A stretch of DNA of 64,000 nt from Pristiophorus japonicus. Lineage: Eukaryota. Numbering within the stretch: the first letter of the stretch is position 1; every line of letters begins with the position of its first letter. The stretch is taken from the NCBI RefSeq assembly GCF_044704955.1, contig NC_091977.1, positions 12,400,001 to 12,464,000 on the forward strand, written 5' to 3'. Shown here piece after piece: positions 6,551 through 52,400 of this stretch. The notes beneath the pieces are model-generated. The model was not told where the DNA came from. It saw only the letters and a list, made by a program, of their open reading frames with translations, and made no database searches. The position numbers and the translations under genes are program-made.

Positions 6551-8086
6551 TATCATGTATGTACATTCTATTTGTAGCCACCAGATGGCGTCATTGTTGG
6601 AGGCCACTGAGCAGCACGCACATGGTGCTGCTCAGGTATAAAAGGCCAGCCATTTTGAGAGTCAGGCACTTTGGGCCTAAATAAAGCAGAGCCAAGGTTG
6701 TACCTTGTTTAGTTAAACAGTACTCAGTTTGAAACTTTATTGCATACTTAACATTTGGCGACGAGAATACAAGAAACTTTCTTTGCAAAATGGGCACGGT
6801 TGGATTTTTAGAGCGATTTGTGGAGGGAAAAGATTGGGCAGACTTTGTGAGCCGTTTGAACCAGTATTTCGTGGCCAACAAAATGGAGGGGGTCGATGAT
6901 GCAGATCGGCGCGGGGCCGTGTTCCTCACTGTGTGCGGTTCGAAGATCTACGGTCTGATAAAGAATCTACTCATGCCCAGTGATCCAACAGAGAAAACGT
7001 ACGAGGAGTTGTGTACATTGGTACGGGAGCACCTCAAGCCAGACGACGGCATCATCGTCTCGAGATACAGGTTTTATACACACGTTCGATCGGAGGGCCA
7101 GAGCGCGGCGGAATTCGTTGGCGACCCGAGACGTCTAGCGGGACCGTGCAAGTTGGGGACGGTGTTGGCAGACATGCTGCGGGACTTCTTGCACAAGTTG
7201 ATCTTGCGCAAACTTCTGACGGTGGAGGAGTTGGATTTAAAAAGGGCCATCCAGATCACTCAATCATGTATGACGATGGACAGGAGTCTAAAGCAAATAT
7301 CGGTGAAGAACCAAACCTCGGCAAGTACTGTAAATGTGATTGATTCGGCATTTAGCAGAGCAGCACATGGCTGCCCAAAGTCTGCCAGCGGGAACGTATC
7401 TGACTTCTCCGTGTTGGCGTTGTGGGGGAGATCATTGGCACCAGCAGTGCCAATTTAAGCAATATAGTTGCAAAGGCTGTCTGAGGGTGGGGCATCTCCA
7501 GCGCAAGTGTCCGCAGATGAGCAAGCGAGTTGCGACAAACCACGTGGCGGATGAGTCAGACTAGCGCGGATCCGGATACGCAATCCGAGATGCCAGAGGA
7601 GGAAGTGTATGGGCTGTACTCTTTTATAACCAAGAGTAAACCAATTTTGATTAATGTGAAGTTTAACGGGATACCGGTATCGCTGGAACTGGACACAGGA
7701 CCGAGTCAATCGATCATGAACGAGAGAGCATTTATTAAGCTGTGGAATACTACGACTGTGAGGTCCAGGCTGAGCCCTGTTAACACCAAGCTGCGCACGT
7801 ACACCAAACTGATAAAGGTGATTGACAGTGCACAAATTAATGTGTCATATAACATTGCGGTTCACGAGTTACCACTGTGGATTGTTCCAGGCAATGCTGC
7901 TCGGCAGGAGCTGGTTGGAGAAAATCAGATGCGACTGGAATGACATAAAGGCGTTGTCATTGGAGTAAGATACATGTGCCCAAGTATTGAACAAGTTCCC
8001 CTCGTTGTTCGAACCAGGCATCGGCAGCTTCACGGGAGCCAAGGTGCAGATCCGCGTGGACTCAGATGCAAGACCCATCCATCATA
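6551..8086 (+). mobile_element. Gypsy (Mag-like) family B: 5' LTR, gag and protease; 3'-truncated
   Basis: LTR ~6551-6753 ending TAACA, TATAAAA at 6637, AATAAA. PBS TGGCGACGAG at 6756-6765. Gag 6790-7458, two CCHC-like knuckles (7340-7564), protease ELDTG. Ends at a CR1 tail. Confidence 0.9.
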
Positions 8087-16599: not shown

Positions 16600-18324
16600 T
16601 GTAGTGTTTGTAGGCACCTTTGGTAATGACTCCACGAGGCAGGGTATGGTACTTAAAACTGTGTAGACTATAGTCCTTTATTTGCAGCTCCTTCCTCAGG
16701 TTCGGCCATGGGCGTCGGGAATCCACTTCTTTCGACGATGTTCACCTCTTGGGAGTCCTGTCCCGGCCCAGAAGGTGGAGTTTGGGCTTTCGGTCCTGGA
16801 GATTTCATCGCGGTGTTGTGGAGTCGTCGCCGCGCAGTCGAGCTGGATGGTGGGATCTCTGGAGGCAGCGATGGATCCACGTTTGATGTCGATTGCTGGA
16901 GCCCGGAGGCCGTCGTCACTTCGACCGAATTGGACCAGGTTCATCCAATTCCTTCCCAGCAGCGTGTGACCTTCGCCAGCAATGATCCACAGGAGGACTT
17001 TGTTCAACAAGCCACCCTGGGAGACCTGGACGTCCACGCTGCCAACCACTGGAATTTGAACTTTGGTGTAGGTGAGCAGCTTCGCTTGGACAGGATGCAG
17101 TTTTGGTCGATTGGCGGGATTTATCCCAAGTTTTTCAAAAATCGTTTGGCTCATCAGAGACTGGCTCGCCCCTGTCTTGATCTCCATAGAAACTGGGACT
17201 CCGTCGAAGTCTACTTCCATCGTCCATGGAGAACTATCGGTGGAGCAGGTATAAACTCCATACTCTAATTCCAGGGGTTGAGCAGCTTCACCTTTATCTG
17301 TGTCAGAGCCCCGGTGATCAGCCAACTCATCAGAGATGCGATGAGTAGAGCTTTTTCTGCACATTCTTTGAAAGTGCCCTTTCTCTTTGCAGCCTTTGCA
17401 AGTGTAGTCTTTCTAGCGGCACTGGTGGGTCCTGTGGTTTCCCCCACATCGCCAGCTCGGGGCCATCTGGTTGGCCCCATGTGCCGGACTCAGGGTTGCG
17501 GGACTCGGGGCAACATTTCTGCCTTTAGAAGTATCTATGCGGTGCACTGCGTTCGCTGGTTTAGAGTCCTGGGTCAGTATTCGCCTGGAGTCACCGACCG
17601 AAACCATGTGGGCCTGGCTCACTTGAATTGCTTTCTGCATGGTGACTGTGATGTCGGCAGAGAGCAATTTGTGTAGGAGGCCCTCGTGGCCAATTCCGAT
17701 GACAAATATGTCCCTTAGTTCTTCATTAAGGTGGTCTCCAAAATCACACGGTGCAGCTAGTCTTCTTAAATGTGCAGCATACTTAGTAATTTCTTGGCCT
17801 TCGGGTCGCCGCTAAGTGTAGAACTGGTGCCTGGCTGTGAGGATGCTTTCTTTCGGTTTTAGTTGCTCCTGTATAAGTGTTACAAGTTCCTCATAGCTCT
17901 TGGTTATTGCCTTCTCCGGGGCTAGCAAGTCCCTGATGAGACAATGGATGGTGGGCCCACAACTGTTAAGCAGGATGGTCCTGCGCTTGTTCGGTCGTGT
18001 AGCCTGTGTGTCCCCATCCAGGTCGTTGACTATGAAGAAATGTTCCAATCTTTCTACAAAAGCATCCCAATCTTACCCATTGTAAGTTGCTGAGATTCAA
18101 CATGCTGAGTGTGTAGTTCGTGACCTGGTATCCTCGTCGCCAGTTGTAGTGTATGTAGGCACCTTTGGTAATGATTCCACGAGGCAGGATATGGTACTTA
18201 AAACGGTGTGCAGGTAACCCTTAGATCTCCAGCAGCAGGTGGTGTACAGGTAAGGTGTGTACAGTGTAAGGGTACATTCAGTGTTACAGACATCATACAA
18301 CAAAACAAGCATGCATATATAACA
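16600..18324 (-). mobile_element. Gypsy family D: 1.7-kb gag+protease-only LTR element
   Basis: Perfect TSD CAAAC (16595-16599 / 18325-18329). 5' LTR 18145-18324, partial 3' LTR 16600-~16690. PBS TGGCGACGAGGAT. Gag pieces and degenerate protease (MEIKTGAS..LLGRNW); no RT or integrase. Confidence 0.88.
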
Positions 18325-20935: not shown

Positions 20936-23900
20936 TTAATCATTCCCACCTTCAACTCCTTCCATGTCTGTAGGTAAAATATGATCAACATGAACAAACC
21001 TAACCTGTCCATTATCAAACATCTTTACCAAATATGTGCGAGGAACATATATCTTCACCACTCTTCCTGGTAACCACTTTAACCATTTATGGTGATGGTT
21101 CTTCACTCTCACCTTCTGGTTTAATTTCACACTTCTCTCTTTTACTGTACCTCTATCATGATTCTCTTTCTGTCTTAATTGTGTCTCTTCTATGGACTGT
21201 GCCAAATTTGGCTTTAACAACGAGAATCTGGTTCATGGCTGTCGTTTGAGAAACAACTCTGCTGGTGTTCTACCAGTAGTTGTATGAGGAGTATTTCGAT
21301 ATGTAATCAAAAAATTAGCCAATTTGTGATCCAGTGACAACTGTCGTTTCCTTGGATTTGGATCTAACATTTGTTTTATGAGGGCACGTTTTACAATTTG
21401 TGCAGTGCGCTCTGCTGCACCATTCGAAGCAGGATGGTATGGTGGAACCTTGGTATGTTTCACACCATTTTTGCTCGTGAATTGTGAAAATTCTTCTGAA
21501 CGAAATTGTGGTCCATTATCTGAAACAATTTCTTCAGGAAGGCCAAATGAAGAAAATAATTTTCTTAAAATGTCCAATATTTTACTTGTTGTTATTTTCC
21601 ACATTGGAAATACCTCAACCCACTTCGAATGGCTATCAATCACAATGAACAATTGTTCTCCTTCTAACTCAGCAAAATCAATATGTAGCCTTTGCCACAC
21701 CCTGGGAGGCCATTTCCATGGCTGTAATGGTACTGGTGGTGGTTGCTTGCTTACCGATTGACATGTCGTACACTGACTCACGATGTACTCTATATCTTTA
21801 TCAAGACCTGGCCACCATAAATAACTGCGTGCAAAACTCTTGGTCAAGCACATTCCCAGGTGCTGGTCATGGAGGTCTCCTAATAATTTGGACCTGAATT
21901 TATTTGGTAAAACCACTCTTACATCCCACATGATACAATCTTTATCGACTGATAATTCATTCCTACGAATGAAGAATGGATGTGTATCTTTGTCTGTTAC
22001 CTGATTTGGCCATCCATTTGCAATATACTCATACACCTTTGACATCACTGAGTCACGTTTGGTTGCTCTACCAATCTCTTCAGCTGTGACTGGCAGTTCA
22101 TCAATGTATGAAAAATAAAACACTTCTTCCCTATCGGGTGTAACTAGTGATGGGGAAGGCAATCTAGACATTGCATCAACATTACTGTGATCAGCTGATC
22201 GTCTGTATTCAATATCATATGTATATGCTGACAAAATCAAAGCCCATCTCTGCATTCGGGCTGCAGCTAATGTTGGAACTGGGAACTTTGGATGGAGGAT
22301 TGCTGTTAGGGGCTTATGGTCAGTAACGATGGTAAACTTACGACCATACAAGTATTTGTGAAACTTCTTGACCCCAAAAATGAATGCCTAAGCTTCCCTT
22401 TCAATTTGCGCATAATTACTCTCACTGGCACTGAGACTGCATGAAGCAAAAGCAATTGGTCTCTCCTCCCCACTACTTAATACATGAGAGATCACTGCCC
22501 CAACTCCATACGGAGAGGCATCACATGCTAGCTTAATCTCCTTAGATATGTCACAGTAAACTAACATGGTGCTCTCTACCAATTTACTTTTACACTCCTT
22601 GAATGCTGTATTGCATTCTTTTGACCATTTCTAATGGACCTGTTTTTTCAATAGTTCATCAGTGGATGTAATACTGTAGCCAAATTTGGTAGGAACTTCT
22701 CATAATAGTTCAAAAGACCCAAGAATGAACGAAGTTCAGTGACATTCCTGGGAGTGGGTGCATTTCAAATTGCATCCAATTTTTCCATGGTTGGATGTAA
22801 ACCATCCTTGTCTACTCTGTACCCTAAGTACTCCACTGAGTTTTTAAATAACTCACACTTACGAGCAGACACTCGTACTCTGTGCTTCTCTAGCCGTTTG
22901 AGGACTTAATTCAACATGTTATTATGAATTTGCCTATTTGGTGCTGAAATTAGTATGTCATCCAAATAACATACTACCCCTTCAATACCTTGCAAAATCT
23001 GGTTCATCACCCCTTGGAATATAGCAGGGGCGGAAGACACTCCAAACGGTAGCCTATTAAATTGATATTGGCCGAGATGAGTATTTATAGTCAAACATGA
23101 CTTGGACTCCTCATCTAGTTCAAGCTGTAAGTAGGCATTCGTAAGATCCAGTTTTGAGAAGATCTGACCACCTGTCAGTGTTGTGAACAAATCTATGTTC
23201 GGCAATGTATTGGGGACATTACCCTCTAGAATCTGGTTTACGGTTACTTTATAATCACCACACAATCTTACCTTACCATCAGACTTAGGTACAACAACAA
23301 TGGGTGTAGCCCAATTACATTGATCTATCTTACAAATAATGTTCTCAGTCTCTCGTCTTTTGAGTTCTTGCTCAACTTTCTCCTTGAGTGCATATGGTAC
23401 GGAACGTGGCTTGTAGTAAACTGATCTAGCGTCCTTCTGTACCCTGACATTCGCCTTGAAGCCTTGGATCGGACTGCCCGTTTCGCAGAACACCTTCGGA
23501 TATTTCTTGATAACCTCATCCGTTGATGAAAATCTCGCTTCCACACAGAAAATCTTACTCCAATCCAGCTTCAGTGAGCTCAACCAATTTCTTCCTAGTA
23601 AGGCAGACTTGTCTCCCTTCACTAATATTGGAGGCAAGTTCTGAAATTGATCTTTACATTTCACCAGTATGGTGATACGACCTACCACAGGAATTTTCTC
23701 TCCCGAGTAGCCTCGTAGCTCTATCTTGGGTTTCTCCAGTTGAAAATCACGCAATTTGTCGCGATATAGTGACTCCGGTACTACACTCACGGATGCACCC
23801 GTGTCGATTTCCATTGGTATCTTGAATCCCGCAACATCTATGTAGATTTTGATGATTTCCGAATCGCTGTCTGTTAACCTCGTGCTCCTGATGACGTGTA

Positions 23901-23937
23901 ACTCTAACATCTCCTCGTCCTGTTGTTGTTCTTCCAT
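20936..23937 (-). pseudogene. Gypsy pol pseudogene (PR-RT-RNaseH-IN)
   Basis: ORFs 22906-23937 (IDTGAS, YLDD), 22388-22582 (CDAS), 21233-22351 (HHCC, D,D35E), 20936-21220. Confidence 0.93.
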
Positions 23938-24093
23938 GCTATAAGAAGTAGAAAGGAATCAAAAGGTGATGTCACAGCCAATGGGGTAAGTGATTGGCTG
24001 GTGATTGGTGAGTAGCTTTTCTTTTTCTTTTTATATCAGTAAGTAAACTGTAGCATTGTTATTACCAATTTAAGGGTATCTAAGGGTTAAGGT

Positions 24094-25041
24094 ATGGCAG
24101 GAGAGATCGGTCACGTGATATGCTCCTCCTGTGCCATGTGGGAACTCAGGGACGCTTCCGGTGTCCCTTACGACTACATGTGTAAGAAGTGTATCCGCCT
24201 CCATCTCCTGATGGACCGTGTTGCGGAATTGGAGCTGAGGGTGGATTCACTCTGGAGCATCCACGATGCTGAGAATGACATAAGTGGCACGTGTAGTGAG
24301 TTGGTCTTACCGCATGAGAAGGATCCACAGCCAGCTAGGGAATGGAAGACCAGCAGGAAGAGTAGTACAAAGAAGGTAGTGCAGGGGTCCCATCTGGTCA
24401 TCCCCCTGCAAAACAGATACACTGTTTTGAGTGCTGTTGAGGGAGATGACTCATTAGGGGAGAGCAACAGCAGCCAAGTTCATGGCACCATGGCTGGCTC
24501 TGTTGTACAGGAGGGCATAAAAAAGAGTGGGAGAGCGATAGTGATAGGGGATTCAATCATAAGGGAAATAAATAGGCGTTTCTGCGGCCGCAATCGAGAG
24601 TCCAGGATGGTATGTTGCCTCCCTGGTGCAAGGGTCAAGGATGTCTCCGAGCGAGTGCAGGACATTCTGAAAAGGGAGGGAGAACAGCCAGTTGTCGTGG
24701 TGCACATTGGTACCAACGACATAGGTAAAAAAAGGGATAAGGTCCTACGAGACGAATTTAAGGAGCTAGGAGTTAAATTAAAAAGTAGGTCCTCAAAAGT
24801 AGTAATCTCGGGATTGCTACCAGTGCCATGTGCTAGTCAGAGTAGGAATCACAGGATAGCGCAGATGAATACATGGCTTGAGCAGTGGTGCAGCAGGGAG
24901 GGATTCAAATTCGTGGGGCATTGGAACAGGTTCTGGGGGAGGTGGGACCAGTACAAACCGGACGGTCTGCACTTGGGCAGGAACGGAACCAATGTCCTAG
25001 GGGGAGTGTTTGCTCGTGCTGTTGGTGAGGAGTTAAACTAA
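24094..25041 (+). CDS. CR1 ORF1p, intact 315 aa: zinc finger, leucine zipper, SGNH/GDSL esterase
   Basis: CSSC..CKKC, heptad leucines, then IGDS, PGA, HIGTND and DGLH blocks. Confidence 0.9.
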   Translation: MAGEIGHVICSSCAMWELRDASGVPYDYMCKKCIRLHLLMDRVAELELRVDSLWSIHDAENDISGTCSELVLPHEKDPQPAREWKTSRKSSTKKVVQGSHLVIPLQNRYTVLSAVEGDDSLGESNSSQVHGTMAGSVVQEGIKKSGRAIVIGDSIIREINRRFCGRNRESRMVCCLPGARVKDVSERVQDILKREGEQPVVVVHIGTNDIGKKRDKVLRDEFKELGVKLKSRSSKVVISGLLPVPCASQSRNHRIAQMNTWLEQWCSREGFKFVGHWNRFWGRWDQYKPDGLHLGRNGTNVLGGVFARAVGEELN

Positions 25042-25196
25042 TATGGCACGGGGATGGGAACCAATACAGGGAGACAGAGGGAAACAAAAAGGAGACAAAA
25101 ACAAAAGACAGAAAAGAGACGAGTAAAACTGGAGGGCAGAGAAACCAAAGGCAAGAAACAAAAAGGACCTCTGAATATAAAAGGGCTGCAGAAGGG

Positions 25197-27964
25197 GTGA
25201 AAACTAAAAATCATGGTTTAAAAACTAGGATGAAAACACTCTACCTAAATGCACGCAGCATTAGAAATAAAGTAAATGAGTTGACGGCACAAATCATTAC
25301 AAATGGGTATGATTTGGTGACCATTACAGAGACATGGTTGCAAGGTGGCCAGGACTGGGAATTAAACATACACGGGTATCTGACAATTCGGAAAGATAGG
25401 CAGGAAGGGAAGGGAGGTGGGGTAGCTCTGTTAATAAGGGATGATATCAGGGCAGTTGTGAGGGATGATATTGGCTCCAATGAACAAAATGTTGAATCAT
25501 TGTGGGCGGAGATTAGAGATAGTAAGGGGAAAAAGTCACTGGTCGGCGTAGTTTATAGGCCCCCAAATAATAACTTCATGATGGTGCGGGCAATAATCAA
25601 GGGAATAAAGGAGGCATGTGAAAAAGGAACGGCAGTAGTTATGGGGGATTTTAACCGACATATCGATTGGTCAAATCAAATCGCAGGGGGTAGCCTGGAG
25701 GAGGAATTCATAGAATGCATACGGGATTGTTTCTTAGAACAGTATGTAACAGAGCGTACAAGAGAGCAAACCATTTTGGATCTGGTCCTGTGTAACGAGA
25801 CAGGAAAAATAAACGATCTCCTCGTAAAAGATCCTCTCGGAATGAGTGATCACAATATGGTTGAATTTGTAATACAGATTGAGGGTGAGGAAATTGTGCC
25901 AGAAACGAGAGTACTATGCTTAAACAAAGGGGCCTACAGTGGGATGAGGGCAGAGTTGGCTAAAGTAGACTGGAAACAAGGACTAAACGGTGGCACAATT
26001 GAGGAACAGTGGAGGACTTTTAAGGAGCTCTTTCATAATGCGCAACAAAAATATATTCCAGTGAAAAAGAAGGGCGGCAAGAGAAGAGATAACCAGCCGT
26101 GGATAACCAAAGAAATAAAGCAAAGTATCAAATCAAAGACCAATGCGTATAAGGTGGCCAAGGTTAGTGGGAAACTAGAGGATTGGGAAGATTTTAAGCA
26201 ACAGCAAAGAATGACTAAAAAAGCAATAAAGAAAGGGAAGATAGATTACGAAGGTAAACTTGCGCAAAACATAAAAACAGATAGTAAAAGCTTTTACAGA
26301 TACATAAAATGGAAAAGAGTGACTAAAGTAAATGTTGGTCCCTTAGAAGATGAAAAGGGGGATTTAATAATGGGAAATGGCTGAGACCTTAAACAATTAT
26401 TTTGCTTCGGTCTTCACAGTGGAAGACACAAAAACCATGCCAAAAATTGCTGGTCATAGGAATGTGGGAAGGGAGGACCTTGAGATGATCACTATCACTA
26501 GGGAGGTAGTGCTGGACAGACTAATGGGATTGAAGGTAGACAAGTCCCCTGGTCCTGATGAAATGCATCCCAGGGTATTAAAAGAGATGGCGGAAGTTAT
26601 AGCAGATGCATTTGTTATAATCTACCAAAATTCTCTGGACTCTGGGGAGGTACCAGCGGATTGGAGAGCAGCTAATGTAACGCCTCTGTTTAAAAAAGGG
26701 GGCAGGCAAAAGGCAGGTAACTATAGGCCGGTTAGTTTAACATCTATACTGGGGAAAATGCTTGAAACTATCATTAAGGAAGAAATAGCGGGATATCTAG
26801 ATAGGAATAGTGCAATCAAGCAGACGCAGCATGGATTCATGAAAGGGAAATCATGTTTAACTAACTTACTGGAATTCTTTGAGGATATAACGAGCATGGT
26901 GGATAGAGATGTACCGATGGATGTGGTGTATTTATATTTCCAAAAGGCATTCGATAAGGTGCCACACAAAAGGTTACTGCAGAAGATAAAGGTACGCGGA
27001 GTCAGAGGAAATGTATTAGCATGGATCGAGAATTGGCTGGCGAACAGAAAGCAGAGAGTCGGGATAAATGGGTCCTTTTCTGGTTGGAAATCAGTGGTTA
27101 GTGGTTGCCACAGGGATCAGTGCTGGGACCACAACTGTTTACAATATACATAGATGACCTAGAGGAGGGGACAGAGTGTAGTGCAACAAAATTTGCAGAT
27201 GACACTAAGATTAGTGGGAAAGCGGGTTGTGTAGAGGACTCAGAGAGGCTGCAAGGAGATTTGGATAGGTTAAGCGAATGGGCTAAGGTTTGGCAGATGG
27301 AATACAATGTCGGAAAGTGTGAGGTCATCCACCTTGGGAAAAAAAACAGTAAAAGGGAATATTATTTGAATGGGGAGAAATTACAACATGCTGTGGTGCA
27401 GAGGGACCTGGGGGTCCTTGTGCATGAATCCCAAAAGGTTAGTTTGCAGGTGCAGCAGGTAATCAGGAAGGCAAATGGAATGTTGGCCTTCATTGCGAAA
27501 GGGATGGAGTACAAAAGCAGGGAGGTCTTGCTGCAACTGTATAAGGTATTGGTGAAGTCGCACCTGGAGTACTGCGTGCAGTTTTGGTCACCTTACTTAA
27601 GGAAGGATATACTAGCTTTGGAGGAGGTACAGAGACGATTCACTAGGCTGATTCGAGAAATGAGGGGGTTAACTTATGATGATAGATTGAGTAGACTGGG
27701 TCTTTATTCCTTGGAGTTCAGAGGATGAGGGGTGATCTTATAGAAACATTTAAAATAATGAAAGGGATAGACAAGATAGAGGCAGAGAGGTTGTTTCCAC
27801 TGGTCGGGGAGATTAGAACTAGGGGACACAGCCTCAAAATACGGGGGAGCCAATTTAAAACCGAGTTGAGAAAGAATTTCTTCTCCCAGAGGGTTGTGAA
27901 TCTGTGGAATTCTCTGCCCAAGGAAGCAGTTGAGGCTGGCTCAATGTTTTCAAGTCAAAGATAA
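25197..27964 (+). pseudogene. CR1 ORF2 (APE endonuclease and RT), frameshifted
   Basis: ORFs 25197-26384, 26377-27153, 27105-27728, 27725-27964 with APE and RT (KFADD) motifs; at least three small indels. Confidence 0.93.
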
Positions 27965-39612: not shown

Positions 39613-40113
39613 GGGACGAAGTCCCATCTCCACACTGAGGACACAATCCATCATGTTGTGTCGCATGCTAAATGGGATAGATTCAGAACAAATCTAGCAG
39701 TTCAAAACTGGGCATTCATGAGGCTCTGTGGGCCATCAGCAGCAGCAGAATTCTATTCCACCACAATCTGTAACCTCATGGCCCAGTATATCCCTTACTC
39801 TACCATTACCATCAAGCCAGGGGACCAACTCTGGTTCGATGAAGAGTGTAGGAAAGCATGTCAGGAGCAGCACCAGGCATAACTGGGGAAGCTGCAACAC
39901 AGGACTACTTACATGCTGTAGACAAGGCTAAGCAATCCCACAACCAACAGATCAGATTAAAGCTCTGCAGTCCTGCTACATCCAGTCATGAAGGGTGGTG
40001 GACCATGAAACAACTAATGGGAGGAGGAGGCTCTATGAATATCCCTATCCTCCATGATGACGGAGCCCAGCACATGAGTGCAAAAGACACGGCTGAAGCA
40101 TTTACAACCATCT

Positions 40114-40441
40114 TGATAGAGTATTCAAACAGGCTCATTTAGACAGACTGTGAAAATTCACAGACCCCCAAGTCAAGGCTGCTACATGCAGTTCGGCATG
40201 TTGCATTAACTCATCAATCAACTTGACATTTTCGGACCTTGGGTAGTGAGCCAATAAGGTCAAAGAAGGCGAGTTATTTTCTGTAAATTGATCCAGGTAT
40301 AAAATACAGCCATTTTGACCATGTGTCTCAGTAAGACAAAGAAACTGCCAATCAGCCAGCAGCTTGTTACTCTCTGACAAGATTAAAAAGTTAAAACTAC
40401 CATCGGAGTTCGTATTTCATTGGAAATTAAGAGATCTAACA
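40114..40441 (+). repeat. ERV 5' LTR
   Basis: TG...CA termini, CCAAT, TATAAAA, ATTAAA; direct repeat of 46820-47147. Confidence 0.97.
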
Positions 40442-40445
40442 ATTT

Positions 40446-40463
40446 TGGCGCTGCGAACAGGAT
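40446..40463 (+). promoter_or_regulatory. Primer binding site, best fit tRNA-Ser(CGA)-like
   Basis: TGGCGCTGCGAACAGGAT versus the recalled vertebrate Ser(CGA) complement TGGCGCTGTGAGCAGGAT (16/18). Confidence 0.65.
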
Positions 40464-40732
40464 CGCTGAGGAAAGAAACTGAATTTTCGACATCGGACCT
40501 ACATATTGAGGTAAGGACTCCTCTTTTTAAAAAAAGTACTCGGTCAAAAGTCTAAATTCGCCTCTCCTTCTACGCGATTCCGAAAGCCTCCAGTTTGCGA
40601 ACCCTCCGGTTGGTAGTCGGCTCAAGGTCCCATAGACATCTAAACTTCGGCGGTGTGTTAGTTAATTAATCACCGACCTATTGATTGGCTAGCAAGCCTA
40701 CGACTCGAGACCCCAGTAAAGAACTCAGTATA

Positions 40733-42296
40733 ATGGCAGCAGGAGATAAGAGCAAAGAATTGCCTACAACTGTTAAAGGTGGGCAAGCACCACCTGAGGT
40801 TTCGCTAGATTTAATTCTCGAATAGTTGAAAGAATACAAAGAGCAACAATTCAACTTATCTAAAACCTGTATTAAGATCGAACAAAAGTACGGAACCTCC
40901 AAAGGACAATGGTCCTTGGACGAGATTAAAAGCGTCTGGGGAAAAACGACCCATATAAAACATAAAGAGCGAACTAGATGGTCCCTAGCGGTTATGGGAC
41001 AGATCTGAAACCGGAATGAAATTATAATGCGTTCCCAACATGATCGAGAACTGACCAGTACAAAGGATCAATTGCAAGCTGTTTGTGCACAGCTGCGACA
41101 GAAACAGCTTGAATTTGAAAAGCTGGAAGCGGAAGTTAAAGATCTTAAAGGTGAAATTAAAGAATGGAAAAAATCATTAGGTCAAGAGACAGTAATAGGA
41201 AAAGGAAAATGTATCGGTCAATTCCCAGGGTACCCATGTTTGGATAAATTAAAAGCGCAAACCCGAAGACACGACCGAGGAATAGATACGAATTCTGAAT
41301 CCTCTGACGATACAGTGACGGAGGATGAAGAATTAGGGGTGCGCTTTGCCCCATTTAAAAAAAGACGAGTTGTAGTCAAATCAGAAAAGACTGCGGATGA
41401 GGGCGGAACCAAAAAAACAAAGAGAAGGGTGTACGAAGAATACTTATTTCATGATCCGGCAGACCCAGAGAAAATTGATAAATGGTCCAAGGAATTGCCC
41501 AATCCAAAGAAAGGGGGAGTAAAAACGTGGGACCAATTGGGACCACTTAAGAAATATATATCAACTTCATCCCTGGGATGGAGTGCAAATTTTGACCATA
41601 ATGGTGCCAAAAACACAGGGAAGAAAATTGCACGACAAGGTAGATGAAGCTTTGGGGCAGAATGAGCAAGAATTAGACGCAGGATGGGAGGCGATTAAAC
41701 ACTGGCTGCAAGCCTTCAGTACAGCTAAGACAGACTGGGGAAAAATTGCAGCTTGCCAACAGAAAGGAACAGAGGAGGTCCTGGAGTATGACGAGCGGTT
41801 TAGATGCACGTGGCTAGAACATTCGGGTATGAATAATACGGATGAGGAAATGGATGAACAAGTGTTTGGACCCCTGAAAGCAGCTTTCGTGGCAGGTCTA
41901 AAGCCAGAACTGTCCAAAATACTTAAGGTAGTGTTACCGGACTGGGAAGGTAGAGGAACTACCTTTGCAGCATTGGTGGATCGATGTAACCAATTAGACT
42001 GGGATATGGGAGCTAAAGTTCGAGCTGTACAGGCTATGGGATGGAAATCCCAGGATTCCGATAAACAGTTATTAGGAAAATTACCCGGAAAATGTCATTA
42101 TTGTGGGAAAGAAGTTCACTGGGCCAAGACATGCAGGGCAAAACAGCAAGGTCGTGGCTGGGGAAGAGGACGCAGCCAGGGATACAATTCAGCCAACAAA
42201 CCAGGCTTGTCACAAGATAACGATCTCATAGAAGCATTTAAGCGACTGACAATACAACAACAGAAGGAGTTACTTGGGATAGCAAAAAACGATTAG
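40733..42296 (+). pseudogene. gag: ERV gag (2 stops, 1 frameshift)
   Basis: ATG 40733 is in frame with ORFs 40826 and 41027. Coiled coil, YPCL late-domain-like motif, MHR-like QKGTEEVLEYDERF, single CX2CX4HX4C. Confidence 0.9.
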
Positions 42297-42357
42297 AGCC
42301 CACCCTGGCCCCCTCCTCGCACTAATACAACAAAGGGGAGATGGGCTATATACAACT

Positions 42358-45167
42358 GTGAGGGTGGGCGATAAGGATGTGGACTGTCTTTTCGACACAG
42401 GGGCGGAATTAACATGCTTACCCCTACAATATGGAGACTTTTTGCCGTTGGATGGTAGGGCACGTACAGCCTATGGAGTTGGGGGCCATAAAATGGAAAT
42501 TAAAAGGACAACACCGGTACTTATAGGGCTGGGTCCACATGAACTAACCACGCCGGTCTGGATAGGCCCAGTAGATCAACCCCTTTTGGGAATGGACGTT
42601 CTAATCCAAGTAGATTCATCGTTGCATTTCGAGGATGGTCGGGTGACATGGTCAATTAGAACTTTGAAGAAAGAAGAATTGAAGGAACACCCGATATGGG
42701 CTAAAGATAAGAACGATTGTGGCCTACTCCAGATGGAGCCTGCGTCATTTACAGGGACCAAGCCTCCATGCACTAAACAGTATCCCATCAGTCCAACTGC
42801 CATCGCGGGAATCTTACCGGTTATTCAGCAATTGGAGAAACAAGGGGTGCTTATTAAAACGCATAGCTCCTCCAATAGCCCCGTGTGGCTGGTACAGAAA
42901 TCTAATGAGACTTGGCGTTTGACTGTCGATTATCGGAAAGCTAACCAGTGTATTGATCAAAAAGCTCCTTTGGTCGCAGATCCCTCCACCATTTTTAATG
43001 CCCTCAAACCGGAACATAAATATTTCTCGGTTATAGATATGGCCAACGGATTTTGGTCGGTGCCTCTGGCACCGGAGGTTCGACAGTGGTTTGCTTTCAC
43101 TGTCCAAGGACAACAGTATACTTGGACCCGGTTACTGCAGGGTTTCCACAACAGCCCTACGGTATTCCACATGGCTTTACAAAGCCATTTGCGAGAATTA
43201 CCTCCCCTGTCGTCCACAGTCATCCAATATGTAGACAATATCCTGCTAGCTTCAAACACGGAAGACCAGCATGAACAAGATTTACGAGCTTTGCTGGATC
43301 ACCTTCGGCTGAAAGGACATAAAGCCAGCATCGACAAAGCATAAATATCCCAAGAAGAGGTTGTATACCTGGGACAAAAGATTTCACAAGGAAAGAGAGA
43401 ACTTACCCAGGTTAGAACTGCAGCCATTCGGGCTGCTAAAAAACCCACCACTATTCAGGAACTAAGATCTTTTTTGGGATTGTGTAACTTTAACAGAAAT
43501 TGGATTGACTCCTTCACACAGCTTGCTCAGCCATTGAATGATATTTTAAAGGGGAAACATGCCTCTAAAGAAGCATCACCCTCACTAAAGAACAGCAAGA
43601 GGCCTTCCTGAGTTTGAAAAAGGCTTTGTATTCGGCACCGGCTCTGGGAATCCCCGACAGTGGTATGCCCATTTACCCCGTTTGTTCATGAGAAAGAAGG
43701 ATATATGACAGCTAATGTTTACACAGATTCGCGTTATGCTTTTGGAGTCGCTCACAACTTTGGTATGTTATGGCGGAAAAGAGGATTCTTCACTGCAGCT
43801 GGTACACCTATCCGAAATGGAAAAGAAGTCCGAGACTTACTGGAGGCCATATAATTACCTCAGGAAGTGTCCATCCTGAAGTGTAAGGCCCATACCAAGG
43901 AAAATACCACAGAAGCACAGGGAAATGCCCTAGCCGACCAGGCAGCTAAAGATGCCGCCTCACAGGGCGTTCCTCCAGAAGAACCAACACAGATGTGCAG
44001 ATTGAAAGCACTCAGGACTCTGACACGAGACCTTCAAACAATGCAAGGCGAGTGCTCCCAAGAGGAAAAATGGACATGGATTGAGGCAGGAATTAAGCTA
44101 TGCGAAGATGGTGTCTGGAGACAAAGAGTTACCGACAAGCCAGTCGCGCCACAAGCGCTTATGCCTTTTTTAGCCCAACAGATCCCAACAGATCCACTCG
44201 TGGGGACACTTGGCCTCACAACAGTTGACGGCACGGTTCCAGAAAAGCTGGTGGGGTCAGGGATTTAAAAAACATGCCCAGCTGGTAACAGACCGCTGTG
44301 TGGTCTGGCAGAAAAATAATTCTGGACCCATCACGGTAATGCCCCAACTGAGGCCCCCTGCCCCTGTCGGACCATTCCAGCATCTGCAGGTTGATTATAT
44401 ATCTCTTCCTTCATGCCAAGGATACACTAACATTCTTGTCATGGTCGACAGATTCTCTAGATAGGTAGAAGCTGTCCCAACTAAAAGAGCCACAGCCAAT
44501 CACACTGCAAAGGTCTTGTGTAAGGATTAAATTCCCCGATGGGGAGTCCTGAGTAGCATTGACTCAGATCAGGGAACACACTTCACAGGTGCTGTCTGCC
44601 AAGAAGTCTGTAGGTTACTGAACATTACGTGGGATTTACACTGTCCTTATCATCCACAATCATCAGGACAAGTAGAGCGAATGAATCGAACTCTGAAACA
44701 ACGGCTTGCCAAATATCACCAAGAAGGAACACCATGGCCCCAGGCACTACCAATAGTGCTATGTAGCATTAGGGCAACCCCGAACAGAACTACAGGTCTA
44801 AGCCCATTTGAAATTATAACAGGAAGACCCATGTCGCTGCCAGGAACTAGCGATTTACGGAAAGCTGATGTTCACTTAATGAGTTGACACTTTGTTATCA
44901 TACTGTCAGAACTTAACCAATGCTATTAGTTCTGTTTCCCGACAGGTATCGGCAGCTTGGGGTAATCCACCCGAAGGAGGACACGACATCATCCCGGGAG
45001 TCTGGGTCTATGTGAAAAAGTTGCATAAAGAACCTTTGGGTGCCAAGTGGGAGGGACCTTATCAAGTGTTATTGACCACCCAGGCAGCTGTTAAAGTCCA
45101 AGGAAAGAAAGCCTGGATCCACGCTTCACACGTTAAACAAGCACCCGTAACTGAAGCTGAAATCTAA
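42358..45167 (+). pseudogene. pol: ERV pro-pol (PR, RT, partial RNase H, IN), disabled
   Basis: FDTGA, LLGMD; RT QYTWTRLLQGFHNSP, YVDN; RNase H YTDSRYAF..GNALAD; integrase LQVDY..DSDQGTHF..GQVERMN; GPY module. Confidence 0.93.
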
Positions 45168-45191
45168 TAAGGACAATTACTTTTTGCGAAA

Positions 45192-46544
45192 ATGTATAAG
45201 TGTACTGTATTATTGATTGTAGGTATTTTAGACATAGGCCTACTTCTTACTAGCCGACCCTCTGCACCAAAGGGGAATAGTAGGGTAGCAAGGGAATTAC
45301 ATGTAAATACCTTTTTATATATGTCATACATTTATGCCAAACAAGGTAACATTTCTAGTTGTTGGGTGTGTGCGCATATTCCTATTCACGCAAAGGGAGG
45401 GATTCCCTTGAGGCCAGTTCCCTTGAATATCTTGGAAATGGCTGAGTGGATAATTAATCAAAATAAAACAGGCAATGCGTTTCAGGATACGGAAAACTGG
45501 GCACGTAAATGGAAGTCAGCAGGTTACAATCTGACTACCTTTGAAGGGGGATACCAACCGTGCTACAATAATTCCAAACGTCCCCCATTTTTTGTTATCA
45601 CTAATACAACGGGAATAGGAAGACCGGGGGAATCGGTCTGTCTGATTAGAAACATCAAAGGAGGCCAAAATATGGGGTATAGTAACTGCTCCCGGAATTA
45701 TAACATAATCAAGCCACGGAACCGTCCAAACTGGGCTGATGTGGGAATTTTTAACGTAACGGGGATTCTGAATAAAACAGATGGAAAAGCCTGGACAGGC
45801 CCCAGAGTGTTGCTGACAAAGAAACAGCTAACCTTCATTGCCTATAATGGCACCTATTGAGTGTGTGGCCACAAGGCCTACCCTTGGCTGCCCCAGAATT
45901 GGATGGGATCCTGCTATTTAGCCTACATTGTGCCTTATATGTATCATATAAAGTCACTGTCGGAACATTTACACCGTCCTAAGAGAGCTATCACAGAAAC
46001 AGAGAGGTTCTTTGCCATTCTGATTCCCAGGTATGGGACCGCCAGACTGGCAAGGGAATCCATTAACATGGCATCCGCTGTGGAACGGGTAGCCAATGAT
46101 ACCTCAGAGGCCCTAGTTAAAATCAATGCAGAAATGGTAGCAATCCGCACAGTAGCCCTACAGAATAGACTGGTCCTTAATTACATCCTGGCTGAAAAGG
46201 GAGGTACTTGCACCCTACTCGGAACTGAGTGTTGCACATATATCCCAGATAGCTCCAAAGAAATTACCCACTTAGCGGAGCATATCCAAAAGGATGTAGA
46301 AAAACTTAAGCAACCCCCATCATTCACTTTGTGGAGCGGAGCCACTGAATGGCTAGGTTCAGTAGGAACTTCATTGGTGGAAGGTTTAATTCTATTTGTT
46401 GTAATTATTTTACTTTTATATTGTTTGTTTATGTTGATTAAATGTTGTTGCGACCAGGCGGCTGTAGCTGCTGTCCCGCAGGTGAGACACCTTGCAGGTC
46501 CCAGCAGACCGTCTGTACGTGGCACAGGGGTATGTTATGCTTAA
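45192..46544 (+). pseudogene. env: ERV env, gamma-type, 450 codons with a single in-frame stop at 45858-45860
   Basis: Signal peptide, CWVC, furin site RPKR, fusion peptide, ISD LQNRLVLNYIL, CX6CC, transmembrane helix. ORFs 45192-45860 and 45861-46544 are contiguous and in frame. Confidence 0.95.
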
Positions 46545-46819
46545 GGGAAGGTTGTTTACTGGTTGAATTAAGATATTGATTTGGATTAAATTGGAATAAG
46601 GTTAATTAACCTACTAAAACCAGACTTCCATTGTGGCCACGATGGAACTCGGGTTGGTGTAAATTTGTGTGGAAGCTACTAGTCCGGACATGTGGCGAAA
46701 CACATCAACAAATTTTAGAAGGAAACTCTATTAACATGTATGAAATTATTTTGTAGAATGTTTAATCAGTGATACCTGAAGTTTTATGATTCAGTTTGTG
46801 AAAGAATCAAAGGGGGGAT

Positions 46820-47147
46820 TGATAGAGTATTCAAACAGGCTCATTTAAACAGACTGTGAAAATTCACAGACCCCCAAGTCAAGGCTGCTACATGCAGTTC
46901 GGCATGTTGCATTAACTCATCAATCAACTTGACATTTTCGGACCTTGGGTAGTGAGCCAATAAGGTCAAAGAAGGCGAGTTATTTTCTGTAAATTGATCC
47001 AGGTATAAAATACAGCCATTTTGACCACGTGTTTCAGTAAGACAAAGAACCTGGCAATCAGCCAGCAGCTTGTTACTCTCTGCCAAGATTAAAAAGTTAA
47101 AACTACCATCGGAGTTCGTATTTCATTGGAAATTAAGAGATCTAACA
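46820..47147 (+). repeat. ERV 3' LTR
   Basis: Direct repeat of 40114-40441. Confidence 0.97.
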
Positions 47148-50100
47148 ATCTTCAGCCAGAACTGCTGAGTGGATGATCCGTATCGGCCTCATCCCAAGGT
47201 CCCCACCAGCATACAAGCCACTCTTCAGCCAATTCGATTCACTCCAGGTGAGATCAAGAGATGGCTGAGTGCACTGGGTAGAGCAAAGGCTATGGGCCCC
47301 AACAACATCCCAGCTGTTGTGCTGAAGACTTGTGCTTCAAAACTAGCCATGCTCTAGCCAAGCTGTTCCAGTACAGCTACAACACTGGCATCTAACCGAC
47401 AATGTGGAGAACTGCCCAGGTATGTCCGATCCAAATCCAGACTGGACAATTACTGCTCCTTCAGTCTACTGTCAATCATCAGCAAAGTGATTGAAGGTAT
47501 CGTCGACAGTGCTATCAAGTGACACTTACCAATAATCTGCTCACCGATGCCCAGTTCCACCATGACCACTCGGCTACAGACCTCAGAACAGCTGTGGTCC
47601 AAACATGGACAAGAGAACTGAATTCCAGAGATGATATGAGAGTGATTGCCCTTGGTATCAAGGCAGCATTTGACCGAGTGTGGCATCATGGAGCCCTAGT
47701 AAAAGTGAAGTCAATGGGAATCAGGGGTAAACTCTCCACTGGCTAGAGTCAGACCTAGCACAAAGGAAACTGGTTGTGGTGGTTGGAGATCAATCATCAC
47801 AGCCCCAGGACAACACTGCAGGAGTTCCTCAGGGCAGTGTCCTGGGCCCAACCATCTTCAGCTGCTTCATCAATGATCTTCCCTCCATCATAAGGTCAGA
47901 AGTGGGGATGTTCACTGATGACTGCACAGTGTTCAGTACAATTCATAACTCCTCAAATAATGAAGCAGTCCATGCCCCATGCAGCAGGACCTGGACAACA
48001 TTCAGGCTTGGGCTGATAAGTGGCAAGTAATATTCGAGTCACACAAATGGCAGGCAATAACAATCTCCAACAATCAAGAGTCTAACCATCACCACTTGAC
48101 ATTCAACGGCCTTTCCCTCGCCAAATCCCCCACCATCAACATCCTGGGGGTCAGCATATCCCAGAAACTTAACTGGACCAGCCACAAAAATACAGTGGCA
48201 ACAAGAGCAGGTCAGAGGCTGGGTAATCTGTGGCGAGTGTCTCACCTCCTGACTCGCCAAGGTCCATCGTGTCTGCGCCTGCCGACCAAGAGCTATCTAG
48301 TCTAATCCCACTTTCCAGCTTTTGGTCCGTAGTCCTGTAGGTTACGTCACTTTCAGTGCACATCCAAGTATTTTTTAAATGTGGTGAGGCAATGAGTTCC
48401 AGACCCACACTACCCTCTGGGTGAAAAAATTTCCCCTCATATCTCCTCTAACCCTCTCCGCAATTACTTTAAATCTATTTCCCCTGGTTGTTGACCCCTC
48501 TGCCAATGGAAACATATCCTTCCTATCCACTCTATCTGTTGTGTTCCTAACACAGATGAGACTGCACACAGGGAGGTTAAAGTAACAGTGACCTCAGTCT
48601 TTATTAAGACACTCCAGAGTGAGGAACAGGCCTTAGGGGCTGGCTTATATACAGTGCTCCAAAGGGACGCTGGGATCCCTTGGGACTTCAGGGGATGAGC
48701 TCCCTGGTGGCGGAACATGGTGGTGGGAGTGCATGCTTTACAAATACACAACATCACTCCCCCCCAAAGTCAAAGTGAAAACTATTTACAAGGTGAGGCA
48801 GTCGGGAGCTTTTCTTTCCCTGGTGGACCGCCTCGGTACAAATGTCTGTTCTGGTGTGTTGGCTGTGCCCTCGCTGGGCTGGCGTGTTGTTGGCCCTGCA
48901 GGGCTGCTGGGTGAGCCTGGTCTTGCTGGGCTGTTGGGCGTGTTGGGTTCGATTTCCTGGTCTGGCGTGGTGTCGTTTGGTGTGTGTTGTGGGCTTGAAA
49001 AAGGTGGTGTCTGCTGTGGGTTGTTCAGGGCAGTCTGTGAACCGCAGCCTCGTTTGGTAAAGGGGCTTTCTGCAAATTTATTCATTGTCTAGTTTGACTA
49101 CAAACATCTTACTCCCTTCTTTAGCTATCACTGTGCCCGCGATCCACTTGGGACCATGTCCTTAGTTTAGCACATACAGATGGTCATTCAGATCAATTTC
49201 CCGTGACACAGTGGCGCGACCATTGTTTACATTTTGTTGCTGCCGCCTGCTCTCTACCTGATCATGCAGGTTGGGGTGAACCAGCGAGAGTTGGTTGGAA
49301 GTCTCCTTTTCATGAGTAGCTCAGCCAGGGGCACCTCTGTGAGCGAGTGGAGTCTCGTGCGGTAGCTGAGCAGTAGTCGGGACAGGCGGGTTTGGAGTGA
49401 GCCTTCTGTGACTCGTTTAAGGCTCTGTTTGATTGTTTGTACTGCCCGCTCTGCCTGCTCATTGGAGGCTGGTTTAAATGGGGCTGAGGTGACATGTTTG
49501 ATCCCATTGCGGGTCATGAATTCTTTAAATTCGGCACTGGTGAAACATGGCCCGTTGTCATTGACCAGTATGTCAGGCAGATCGTGGGTGACAATCATGG
49601 CCCTCAGGCTTTCAATGGTGGCGGTGGCGGTGCTTCCCGACATTATTTCACATTCAATCCATTTTGAAAAAGCATCCACCACCACGAGGAAGATTTTACC
49701 AAGAAACGGGCCCGCATAGTCGACCATGGATCCTCGACCATGGTCTGAAGGGCCAGGACCACAAACTTAGTGGTGCCTCTCTGGGCGCATTGCTCAACTG
49801 AGCACACACGTTGCATCGCCGTACACAGAACTCTAAGTCAGAGTCGATACCGGGCCACCACACATGGGATCTGGCTATCGCTTTCATCATTACTATCCAC
49901 AGGTGTGTGCTGTGGAGATCCGAGATGAACGTCTCTGTGCCCTTTTTGGGTAGCACTACACGGTTACCCCACAACAGGCAGTCTGCCTGAATGGACAGCT
50001 CGTCCTTTCGCCGCTGGAACGGCTTGATTAGCTTTTGCATTTCAATGGGGATGCTGGCCCAGCTCCCATGCAGTTCACAGTCTTTTACTAGGGACAGCTG

Positions 50101-50691
50101 AGGATCTTGGCTGGTCCAAGTCCTAATCTGGCAGGCCGAGACAGGTGATTTATCATTTTCAAACGCTTCCAGGACCATCAGCAAGTCTGCGGGCTGCGCC
50201 ACCATCAACAAGTTTGCAAGCTGCGCCATTTCCACCCCCGTGGTGGGCAATGAGAGCATCCGCACAGTTCTCAGTGCCTGGCCTGTGGTGGCTGGTATAG
50301 TTATACGCTGATAGTGCGAGTGCCCACCTTTGTATGTGGGCTGAGGCATTAGTATTTATCCCCTTGTTTTCAGCAAACAGGGATATGAGGGGCTTGTGAT
50401 CGGCTTCCAGCTCAAATTTGAGGCCAAACAGGTACTGATGCATTTTCTTTACCCCGAACACACACGCTAATGCCTCTTTCTCAATCATTCTATAGGCCCT
50501 CTCGGCCTTAGACAAGCTTCTGGAAGCATAGGCGACAGGTTGCAACTTCCCCGCAACGTTAGCTTGTTGTAATACACACCCAACTCTGTACGATGATGCA
50601 TCACATGCTAGCACGAGTATTTTACACTGGTTATACAATACAAGCAGCTTGTTGGAGCATAAAATGTTTCTAGCGTTCTCAAAAGCAATTA

Positions 50692-51336
50692 CCGTATATA
50701 CTCGCGTATCATGCGACTTTTGAAGACCTAAATTGTAACCTAAATTTGGGGGGGTCGCATGATACGTGAGATACAAAATTTGCGGGTGTGAAGTGCTAGC
50801 CAAGATTAGGCTGTTAGGCTGTTAAGCAGACCGTATCCACGCTGAATCTCGGCAGGTATCTCCTGGGCTGGATTGCAGCCTCTATTGTCACTTGTACTGT
50901 ATCTTTGCTGTGGTCTAGAGATCGCCACCCACAACTCCCTCTGAAGTTTGCTGCATTATTAGAGGCTCCATCTATCTCAGCCCATGCTTCTTTTACCCGC
51001 AAACACAGTAGAGGCTGTGGCTGAACGACGCTAGTCAAGCCAGCTGGAATGATTGCTGTATCGGTGTTCGATTCGCGAACAGCTTTCACAACAGAATCCA
51101 CTCGATGTTTCATGATTCGGTTGTTAAGGTCTGTATTCGATCGTTGTTATGTGTTAGGGTACTTGTTACGTGTTGGGTACTTGTTAAACTTGTTTGAAAG
51201 CCTAGCCTAGTGGCATCTGGTATCTCAAAAAAGTGACTCGCATGATACATGAGATACATGATAAAATCATGTTTTGGGTACGAAAATTTAGGGGTCGCAT
51301 GATACGTGAGATCGTAGGATACGCGAGTATATACGG
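50692..51336 (-). mobile_element. Non-autonomous pogo/Tc2-type DNA transposon (645 bp)
   Basis: TIR CCGTATATACTCGCGTATC perfect for 19 bp, TA duplication (50690-50691 / 51337-51338), subterminal repeats, DDE remnant IIPAGLTSVVQP..VKEAW. Confidence 0.92.
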
Positions 51337-52400
51337 TACTTGACTTTTTTTCCCCATACCCAGTTCTCACCTTTACGCAATAACAGATGTAGGGGCTCTA
51401 AGAGGGTGCTTAACCCCAGTAGGAAGTTACCAAAATAGTTGAGGAGTCCCAGGAATGACTGCAGTTCCATGACGTTCTGTGGCCTGGGCGCATTCCTGAT
51501 AGCCTCTGTCTTGGCGTCTGTGGGCCGAATGCCATCCGCCGCGATCTTTCTCCCCAAAAACTCCACTTCTGTTGCCCTGAAGACGCATTTCGACCTCTTC
51601 AGCCGCAGCCCTACGCGATCCAGTCGCTGGAGGACCTCCTCCAGGTTTTGTAGGTGCTCGACGGTGTCCCGACCCGTGACCAATATGTCGTCCTGAAAAA
51701 CCACCGTGCGTGGTACCGACTTGAGTCGTCTCTCCATGTTTCTCTGGAAGATCGCTTCAGCCGACCGAATTCCAAACGGCCATCTGTTGTAGATGAACAG
51801 TCCCTTGTGCATGTTGATGCAGGTGAGGCCCTTCGAAGACTCCTCCAGCTCCTGCGTCATGTAGGCTGAAGTCAGGTCGAGCTTGGTGAATGTCTTGCCT
51901 CCTGCCAGCGTCGCAAATAGGTCGTCTGCCTTAGGTAGTGGGTATTGGTCCTGTAGCGAGAAATGATTAATCGTTACTTTATAATCGCCGCAAATCCTGA
52001 CCGTGCCATCACTTTTGAGTACTGGAACAATCGGGCTGGCCCACTCGCTGAATTCCACTGGGGAGATGATGCCCTCGCGTTGCAGCCTGTCCAGCTCGAT
52101 TTCCACTCTCTCCCTCATCATGTGAGGTACCGCTCGCGCCTTGTGGTGAATGGGTCATGCCTCTGGGACCAAGTGGATCCGCACCTTCACCCCGGAAAAG
52201 TTTCCAACGCCTGGCTCAAAAAGGGAAGGAAATTTGTTTAGAACCTAAGTACATGAGGCCTCATCGACATGTGATCGCGCTCGGATGTCATCCCAGTTCC
52301 AGCAGAATTTGCCCAGCCAACTCCTTCCAAGCAGTGTGGGGCCATCGCCCGGGACAATCCAAAGTGGCAGCTCATGCACCGTGCCCTCATAGGTGACCTT

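What the first reader, a model, noticed from the sequence alone, without database searches (positions are those of the whole stretch)
40114..47147. Structurally complete, relatively young ERV with mixed-class hallmarks
Seen, class-I-like: 4-bp TSD, RNase H (YTDSRYAF), integrase with GPY module, gamma-type env. Seen, atypical: RT N-terminal motifs (SPVWLVQKSNETWRLTVDYRKAN, IDMANGFW) look more like class III/SnRV-type RTs; Gag starts MAAG without a myristoylation Gly and has a long coiled coil; the PBS is Ser-like. Inference: a poorly characterised basal fish retrovirus lineage or a recombinant.
Basis: partly seen in the sequence, partly recalled or inferred. Interest (0 to 1): 0.7.

Follow-up and report, generated by a model that had tools for sequence, protein, structure and literature searches.

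The report
Deep-branching fish retrovirus family, defective copy
This is one broken copy of a retrovirus family with over 2,000 copies in what is likely a shark genome; its genes all trace to one unnamed fish lineage that likely branches just below the main retrovirus groups, so it is not a recent hybrid.

Summary
The provirus is real: 40114-47147, 328-bp LTRs differing at 6 sites, inserted in a LINE. It is not complete: pol has lost 612 bp (tether plus half of RNase H), and every gene is interrupted. The family has at least 2,267 LTR-PBS junctions in the 5.9-Gb genome. Its TSD is mostly 5 bp (24 of 31 copies), so the 4-bp 'class I' sign is atypical. The PBS is tRNA-Ser, apparently switching from Ser(CGA) to Ser(UGA) in younger copies. 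Pro lies in the -1 frame behind A AAA AAC (26 of 30 copies), whereas SnRV, SSSV, WDSV and XtERV-S use stop-codon readthrough. In trees, RT, RNase H, IN and TM all fall with the same gar, pike, carp and Astyanax elements. RT and IN each place that lineage as sister to class I plus class II (joint tree 100/99), outside SnRV, class III-like and foamy viruses. The 'mixed' hallmarks are therefore lineage-wide: an old-style RT motif set on a class I-like RNase H, IN and Env. Members already appear, unnamed, in Xu 2018 and Wang & Han 2023. ERV-L and ERV-S were not sampled.

The parts
40110..40113 (+). Left target-site duplication (ATCT); 4 bp here, mostly 5 bp in the family
40114..40441 (+). 5' LTR, 328 bp, TG...CA; CCAAT 40251, TATAAAA 40298, ATTAAA 40382
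40446..40463 (+). Primer-binding site for tRNA-Ser: 17/18 to a Ser(UGA) gene, 15/18 to a Ser(CGA) gene
40508..40516 (+). Candidate splice donor (GAG|GTAAGG) for env mRNA; untested
   Evidence: read from sequence
40733..42296 (+). gag: no myristoylation Gly, coiled coil, MHR motif, one CCHC finger; two stops and one frameshift
42284..42360 (+). gag-pro junction: A AAA AAC heptamer in the gag frame plus a weak downstream hairpin; predicted -1 frameshift site
42284..43715 (+). pro and RT, interrupted by a stop and frameshifts; RT catalytic motif degenerate in this copy
43707..43714 (+). Junction of a 612-bp deletion (tether plus N-half of RNase H) private to this copy among those examined
43715..43950 (+). 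C-terminal half of an MLV-like RNase H (YTDSRYAF), with one stop
44183..45167 (+). Integrase with C-terminal WEGPY/MLVIN_C domain; two stops and frameshifts
45192..46544 (+). Gamma-type env: signal peptide, CWVC, RPKR furin site, HR1 N-glycan sequon, ISD, CX6CC, membrane anchor; one stop
46800..46819 (+). Polypurine tract
46820..47147 (+). 3' LTR
47148..47151 (+). Right target-site duplication (ATCT)
47148..48305 (+). Host LINE ORF2 (RT) remnant, continuous with the sequence left of the provirus; the insertion target

Best explanation
[quoted passage not shown] The parent virus likely primed on tRNA-Ser, made Gag-Pro-Pol by a predicted -1 ribosomal frameshift at A AAA AAC, integrated mostly with 5-bp duplications and entered cells with a gamma-type Env. 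Shown: anatomy, lesions, copy number, TSD and PBS spectra, frame offset, domain congruence. Inferred: the frameshift mechanism; the order of primer use; amplification by both reinfection (SU kept in many copies) and Env-independent copying (SU-deleted copies); the 612-bp deletion arising by template switching between 8-nt repeats. The class III-like RT motifs are read as retained ancestral states, not as a swap.
For: Window domains match the same teleost Pol proteins at 44-64% across PR-RT, RNase H, IN and the IN tail, against 31-39% for the main PR-RT, RNase H and IN segments of a class I fish Pol. RT tree (60 rows): lineage 100/99, sister to class I+II 94/91, crown 100/99. IN tree (57 rows): lineage 100/99, same sister position 94/98. 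Joint RT+IN tree (44 rows, family itself left out): lineage+I+II 100/99, I+II 100/99. RNase H sits in the class I cluster 89/99 and scores 147 bits to XMRV/MLV against 35 to foamy. Forcing the lineage into class III-like+SnRV costs 67 lnL in IN (p 4.5e-6) and 82 in RT+IN; those groups alone cost 17-19. TM groups with gar and pike Env 99/97, species that also carry the Pol lineage. Pro is in the -1 frame in 26 of 30 measurable sisters and the heptamer is intact in 34 of 37. There are 2,267 exact LTR-PBS junctions.
Against: RT alone does not reject grouping with class III-like+SnRV (p 0.26; p 0.18), and RT scores slightly higher to foamy than to MLV (179 vs 168 bits). In the text of Xu 2018 S2 Fig the gar, carp and cod relatives are listed in the Huo part of the tree (topology not visible). 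ERV-L and ERV-S were not sampled. Class II nests inside class I in my trees, probably by long-branch pull, and 'lineage + class I without class II' is not rejected (p 0.15), so sister to I+II versus basal class I is open. In RNase H the lineage is not one clade: 6 of 8 rows group, and an epsilon-like row intrudes. The junction hairpin is weak (z -1.3). The frameshift arrangement was not checked in teleost relatives.
Confidence: 0.72

Rival explanations
1. Ancient chimera: a class III (Huo) RT polymerase domain joined long ago to class I tether, RNase H, integrase, Gag and Env, founding the whole fish lineage.
For: RT motifs WRLTVDYR and DMANGFW resemble SnRV and MuERV-L rows. RT cannot reject the class III grouping, while IN and RNase H do. 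A 5-bp TSD and a Ser PBS are ERV3/XtERV-S traits. RH and IN replacement is documented in retroviruses (PMC7947760).
Against: The best RT tree gives the same position as the IN tree. TSD length is set by the integrase (established knowledge), and the integrase is the domain that most strongly rejects class III.
Confidence: 0.18
2. Recent recombinant specific to this genome or this copy.
Against: The same motif set occurs in single Pol proteins from Astyanax, Coilia and others. The 20 sisters align at 92-98% over the long internal segments. TM relatives come from the same host groups.
Confidence: 0.03
3. An ordinary epsilon-like class I ERV with a divergent RT.
For: RNase H groups near WEHV1 in one tree (97/95). 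Gag resembles Gag_p30 clusters. It has one zinc finger, GPY and a gamma-type Env.
Against: RT and RT+IN exclude it from crown class I(+II) at 100/99. It has a mostly 5-bp TSD and a -1 junction, where class I has 4 bp and readthrough.
Confidence: 0.07

Closest known systems
Unnamed fish ERVs Le_oc_ERV2, Cy_ca_ERV4, Ga_mo_ERV4 (Xu 2018, PMC6001957) and Mamb.ERVi.1, Eluc.ERVi.2 (Wang & Han 2023, PMC10435555)
   Same: Same RT motif set. Gar protein P0007 is near-identical by eye to le_oc_ERV2 and P0231 matches the Cy_ca_ERV4/Mamb.ERVi.1 motifs. Both sit in one clade with this family.
   Different: 59-66% RT identity for the closest hits, so a separate family. I found no description of their TSD, PBS, frameshift or Gag in what I read. 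Xu lists them in the Huo part of the tree, while my trees place them next to class I(+II).
Snakehead retrovirus (SnRV; P0094 = L048, identified)
   Same: Gag without N-terminal Gly, coiled coil, one zinc finger, WEGPY integrase tail, similar RT motifs (PMC2717909).
   Different: SnRV has an in-frame gag-pol stop (readthrough), an 1,100-aa Env with no detectable likeness and accessory ORFs. Gag likeness is limited to the zinc finger. Separate branch in RT, RH and IN. Arg primer (recalled, not checked).
XtERV-S / ERV-L / ERV-S (class III, ERV3; PMC8278194)
   Same: tRNA-Ser PBS, 5-bp TSD, no myristoylation, gamma-type TM with HR1 glycan and N-terminal CXXC.
   Different: XtERV-S has no zinc finger, has dUTPase and uses readthrough. 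This family has a CCHC finger, a GPY tail, no dUTPase hit and a -1 junction. These viruses were not in my trees.
Class I gamma/epsilonretroviruses (MLV, WEHV1, WDSV; ERV1)
   Same: RNase H, tether, IN tail, zinc finger, MHR, TM with ISD and CX6CC.
   Different: Outside crown class I in RT and RT+IN; mostly 5-bp TSD; -1 frame instead of readthrough.

Membership tests
Class I / ERV1 | RT groups within gamma+epsilon | tested here: not met
   Sister to, not inside, the crown
Class I / ERV1 | 4-bp TSD (PMC4299795 Table 1) | tested here: not met
   24 of 31 copies 5 bp, 4 of 31 4 bp
Class I / ERV1 | 1-2 Gag zinc fingers and a GPY/F motif | tested here: met
   One CCHC; WEGPY/MLVIN_C
Class I / ERV1 | gag-pol in frame, stop readthrough (PMC13517186, PMC1224870) | tested here: not met
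   pro in the -1 frame in 26 of 30 copies
Class III / ERV3 (ERV-L, ERV-S, XtERV-S) | RT groups with ERV-L | tested here: inconclusive
   ERV-L/S not available; best trees place it away from frog, coelacanth and bird class III-like rows; RT AU p 0.26
Class III / ERV3 (ERV-L, ERV-S, XtERV-S) | 5-bp TSD | tested here: met
Class III / ERV3 (ERV-L, ERV-S, XtERV-S) | No zinc finger, no GPY/F, dUTPase after IN | tested here: not met
   Finger and GPY present; no dUTPase hit; env follows IN directly
SnRV-like clade | Pol groups with SnRV | tested here: not met
   Separate in RT, RH, IN and RT+IN
SnRV-like clade | Non-myristoylated coiled-coil Gag with one finger | tested here: met
   no alignable homology beyond the finger
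Le_oc_ERV2 / Cy_ca_ERV4 / ERVi fish lineage (unnamed) | One clade in RT and IN | tested here: met
   100/99 in both
Le_oc_ERV2 / Cy_ca_ERV4 / ERVi fish lineage (unnamed) | Shared TSD, PBS and gag-pro strategy | not testable with these tools
   No DNA context for the teleost proteins
Lokiretroviruses | RT outside canonical retroviruses; Mononegavirales-like Env (PMC7947760) | tested here: not met
   Gamma-type TM; separate from loki-like rows, labelled by motif

The most novel reading that the evidence does not exclude
[quoted passage not shown] Its -1 frameshift, 5-bp duplication, single zinc finger and gamma-type Env would then inform the ancestral state of crown orthoretroviruses, and this genome holds a >2,000-copy record of it that includes a primer-tRNA switch.
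Probability: 0.35. Interest if true: 0.72.

Novelty: new variant of a known kind. Interest (0 to 1): 0.5.

Why it matters
Retrovirus classification has a gap between class I/II and the class III/SnRV/foamy grade, and reviews say the positions there are unstable (PMC8922424, PMC4299795). A lineage that RT and IN both place in that gap, with thousands of datable copies, makes it possible to ask whether frameshifting or readthrough, and 4- or 5-bp duplication, came first. It also shows that motif-based class calls mislead for fish ERVs. The single locus in this window is a dead copy and matters little by itself.

Tried and rejected
An exact search for the window PBS as a tRNA 3' end found 0 matches; the nearest gene differs at one site. 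No lineage members were found in viral contigs, and the metagenome scan gave one weak 25% hit. The search for a foamy protease in the own genome was uninformative because the control was silent too. Sequencing runs: no RNA holder listed; small shares in organism C and gut metagenomes were not used. The first trees lacked foamy, class II and gamma rows and suggested 'sister to class I only'; superseded. The idea that the family is largely env-less came from the RT-selected sample (12 of 18 short env). It was weakened by the junction-selected sample (12 of 20 keep SU) and by first-look candidate counts (SU 1,895 vs RT 2,160). Hart 1996 and Hayward 2015 were not held. Earlier scan findings: none. 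No structure prediction was run.

Full report
Observation. The element spans 40114-47147 with 328-bp TG...CA LTRs that differ at 6 sites (K2P 0.0185), a PBS at 40446, a polypurine tract at 46800 and ATCT on both sides. It interrupts a LINE RT remnant. Pfam finds protease, RVT_1, rve, MLVIN_C and TLV_coat. Gag begins MAAG, has a heptad repeat that beat 200 of 200 shuffles, an MHR motif and one CCHC finger; the ESM Atlas look-alikes are Gag_p30 clusters at 0.91. It is not complete. Gag has two stops and a frameshift; pol has four stops, about five frameshifts and a degenerate RT catalytic motif; env has one stop. Pol also lacks 612 bp (tether and first half of RNase H) between 8-nt direct repeats; 18 of 18 measurable sisters keep that segment.

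Family. The genome is 5.9 Gb. The nearest TM is a Heterodontus protein at 81% and most Env hits are sharks and rays, so the host is likely a shark. The 40 best RT matches, the window's own included, are 98-100% identical among 2,160 first-look candidates, and an exact LTR-PBS 18-mer occurs 2,267 times, control 0. I examined 20 copies chosen by RT likeness and 20 taken from the plus-strand junction list on contig 1. Of 31 with both ends found, 24 have an exact 5-bp TSD, 4 an exact 4-bp and 3 neither. LTR divergence runs from 0.3 to 5.9% (medians 1.7% and 3.2%). This copy would be about 42 My old (15-91) at the rate assumed in PMC4422223, or about 4 My at a tenfold faster rate. SU is largely deleted in 12 of 18 measurable copies of the first sample but kept in 12 of 20 of the second; genome-wide candidates are 1,895 for SU.

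Primer. A pattern built from the PBS variants hit 86 places. ARAGORN called tRNA-Ser at 7 of 12 loci tested (2 other calls, 3 none) and at 3 of 3 more. The window PBS matches a Ser(UGA) gene at 17/18 and a Ser(CGA) gene at 15/18. Ser(CGA)-type copies have older LTRs than Ser(UGA)-type copies (p 0.008 in the second sample, 8 vs 4), which suggests a primer switch.

Gag-pro junction. A AAA AAC lies in the gag frame one codon before the stop; 34 of 37 sisters with the junction keep it, and the protease motif is in the -1 frame in 26 of 30 measurable ones. The gag frame closes again ten codons after the stop, so readthrough would not reach pro. The window copy has an extra frameshift just downstream. 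The hairpin behind the site is weak (z -1.3), so the stimulator is unproven. MoMLV, WDSV, SSSV, ZFERV and SnRV are listed as readthrough viruses (PMC13517186, passages); so are XtERV-S (PMC8278194, parts 1-3 of 8) and Ovex1 (PMC2717909, passages). The SnRV record shows the in-frame stop directly.

Relatives. The RT search gave 11 proteins; nine at 57-66% come from Astyanax, gar, Coilia and unnamed assemblies, and the six of them that extend through RNase H and the IN tail show YTDSRY and a GPY/F tail or its start. Every window domain is closest to these same proteins. Gar P0007 is near-identical by eye to le_oc_ERV2 in the supplement of Xu 2018 (PMC6001957; passages, section 7, S2 Fig text and parts of supplement 7, whose long lines are cut). 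Mamb.ERVi.1 and Eluc.ERVi.2 in Wang & Han 2023 (PMC10435555; passages, part of Results, supplement rows) carry the same RT motifs and are reported as currently invading.

Trees. References came from a representative search, a third homolog search, cluster names (WEHV1) and IMG/VR (SnRV, identified by a labelled alignment row and its 10,688-nt record; gamma, foamy and class II rows labelled by motif and length). Rows were a chosen subset with high domain cover. RT: lineage 100/99, sister to class I+II 94/91. IN: lineage 100/99, same position 94/98. RNase H, from a sister copy: inside class I 89/99, with 6 of 8 lineage rows together; 147 bits to XMRV/MLV against 35 to foamy. RT+IN without the family: lineage+I+II 100/99, I+II 100/99. 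AU tests for lineage + class III-like + SnRV: RT p 0.26, RH 0.04, IN 4.5e-6, RT+IN 2e-39. Those groups without the lineage are themselves borderline (p 0.04-0.05, 17-19 lnL), so most but not all of the cost is due to the lineage. Lineage + class I without class II is not rejected (p 0.15). TM groups with gar, pike and ray Env 99/97 and has the HR1 glycan site that exogenous mammalian gamma-type TMs lack (9 rows dropped for no usable TM). SnRV Gag and Env do not align beyond the zinc finger.

Mechanism. The parent was a simple retrovirus: tRNA-Ser priming (shown by match), Gag-Pro-Pol by -1 frameshift (inferred), mostly 5-bp duplication (shown), covalent gamma-type Env (motifs shown). It spread to over 2,000 loci over a long period, likely by both reinfection and Env-independent copying (inferred). 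This copy likely lost the pol segment by template switching and then decayed.

Comparison. By Table 1 of PMC4299795 (passages) it has ERV1's finger and GPY but ERV3's TSD; that paper notes that SnRV- and Ovex1-related ERVs remain unclassified. Class III pol with class I env and a Ser PBS is known from XtERV-S, and RH/IN replacement from PMC7947760 and PMC9040795 (passages). Other papers seen: PMC4422223 (part 1 of 2), and passages of PMC1224870, PMC12193657, PMC4977317, PMC11905727, PMC8922424 and PMC8672886. Nine library searches found no description of this lineage's TSD, primer or frameshift; subscription papers, figures, Repbase and Dfam were not visible.

Verdict. A real but defective copy of a large family in a sampled yet undescribed lineage at the base of class I(+II). 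It is not a recent recombinant; an ancient RT swap remains possible (about 0.18). Interest 0.5; new variant of a known kind.

Noticed in passing
L013-L032, L108-L127 (sister proviruses): PBS type tracks age. Ser(CGA)-type copies have more diverged LTRs than Ser(UGA)-type copies (8 vs 4 copies in the junction-selected sample, p 0.008; 11 vs 19 overall, medians 3.3% vs 1.7%, p 0.003). The window's PBS looks like a mosaic of the two types.
   Followed up: partly
window 39700-46800, run X5: A run labelled as a different organism (B) holds the family across gag, pol and env, in contigs with only 2-14 differing letters over 337-907 bp. It may be a close relative or a synonym; a shared insertion site was not shown.
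   Followed up: partly
P0231: A Pol of the same lineage has 3,937 member sequences in its 90% cluster and matches the Cy_ca_ERV4/Mamb.ERVi.1 motifs: another large burst, likely in a cyprinid.
   Followed up: no
L048 (SnRV) Pol between RNase H and integrase: An insertion of about 200 residues with two H-x-[ST] motifs, reminiscent of a 2H phosphoesterase (recalled, not tested); absent from this family.
   Followed up: no
window 24091-27728: CR1-like LINE with an esterase-like ORF1 and an endonuclease-RT ORF2 in pieces (read; labels from recalled motifs).
   Followed up: no
window 1365-2621, 6733-7458, 16696-17412, 21233-23958, 48786-52154: Several Ty3/gypsy-type gag/pol remnants; rve and Integrase_H2C2 Pfam hits at 49254-50355 on the minus strand. 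The window is largely nested mobile elements.
   Followed up: no
P0013-P0040: Related Env proteins in sharks, rays, sturgeon, gar and pike are auto-annotated 'syncytin-like' or 'PABLB-like'; some may be co-opted genes.
   Followed up: no
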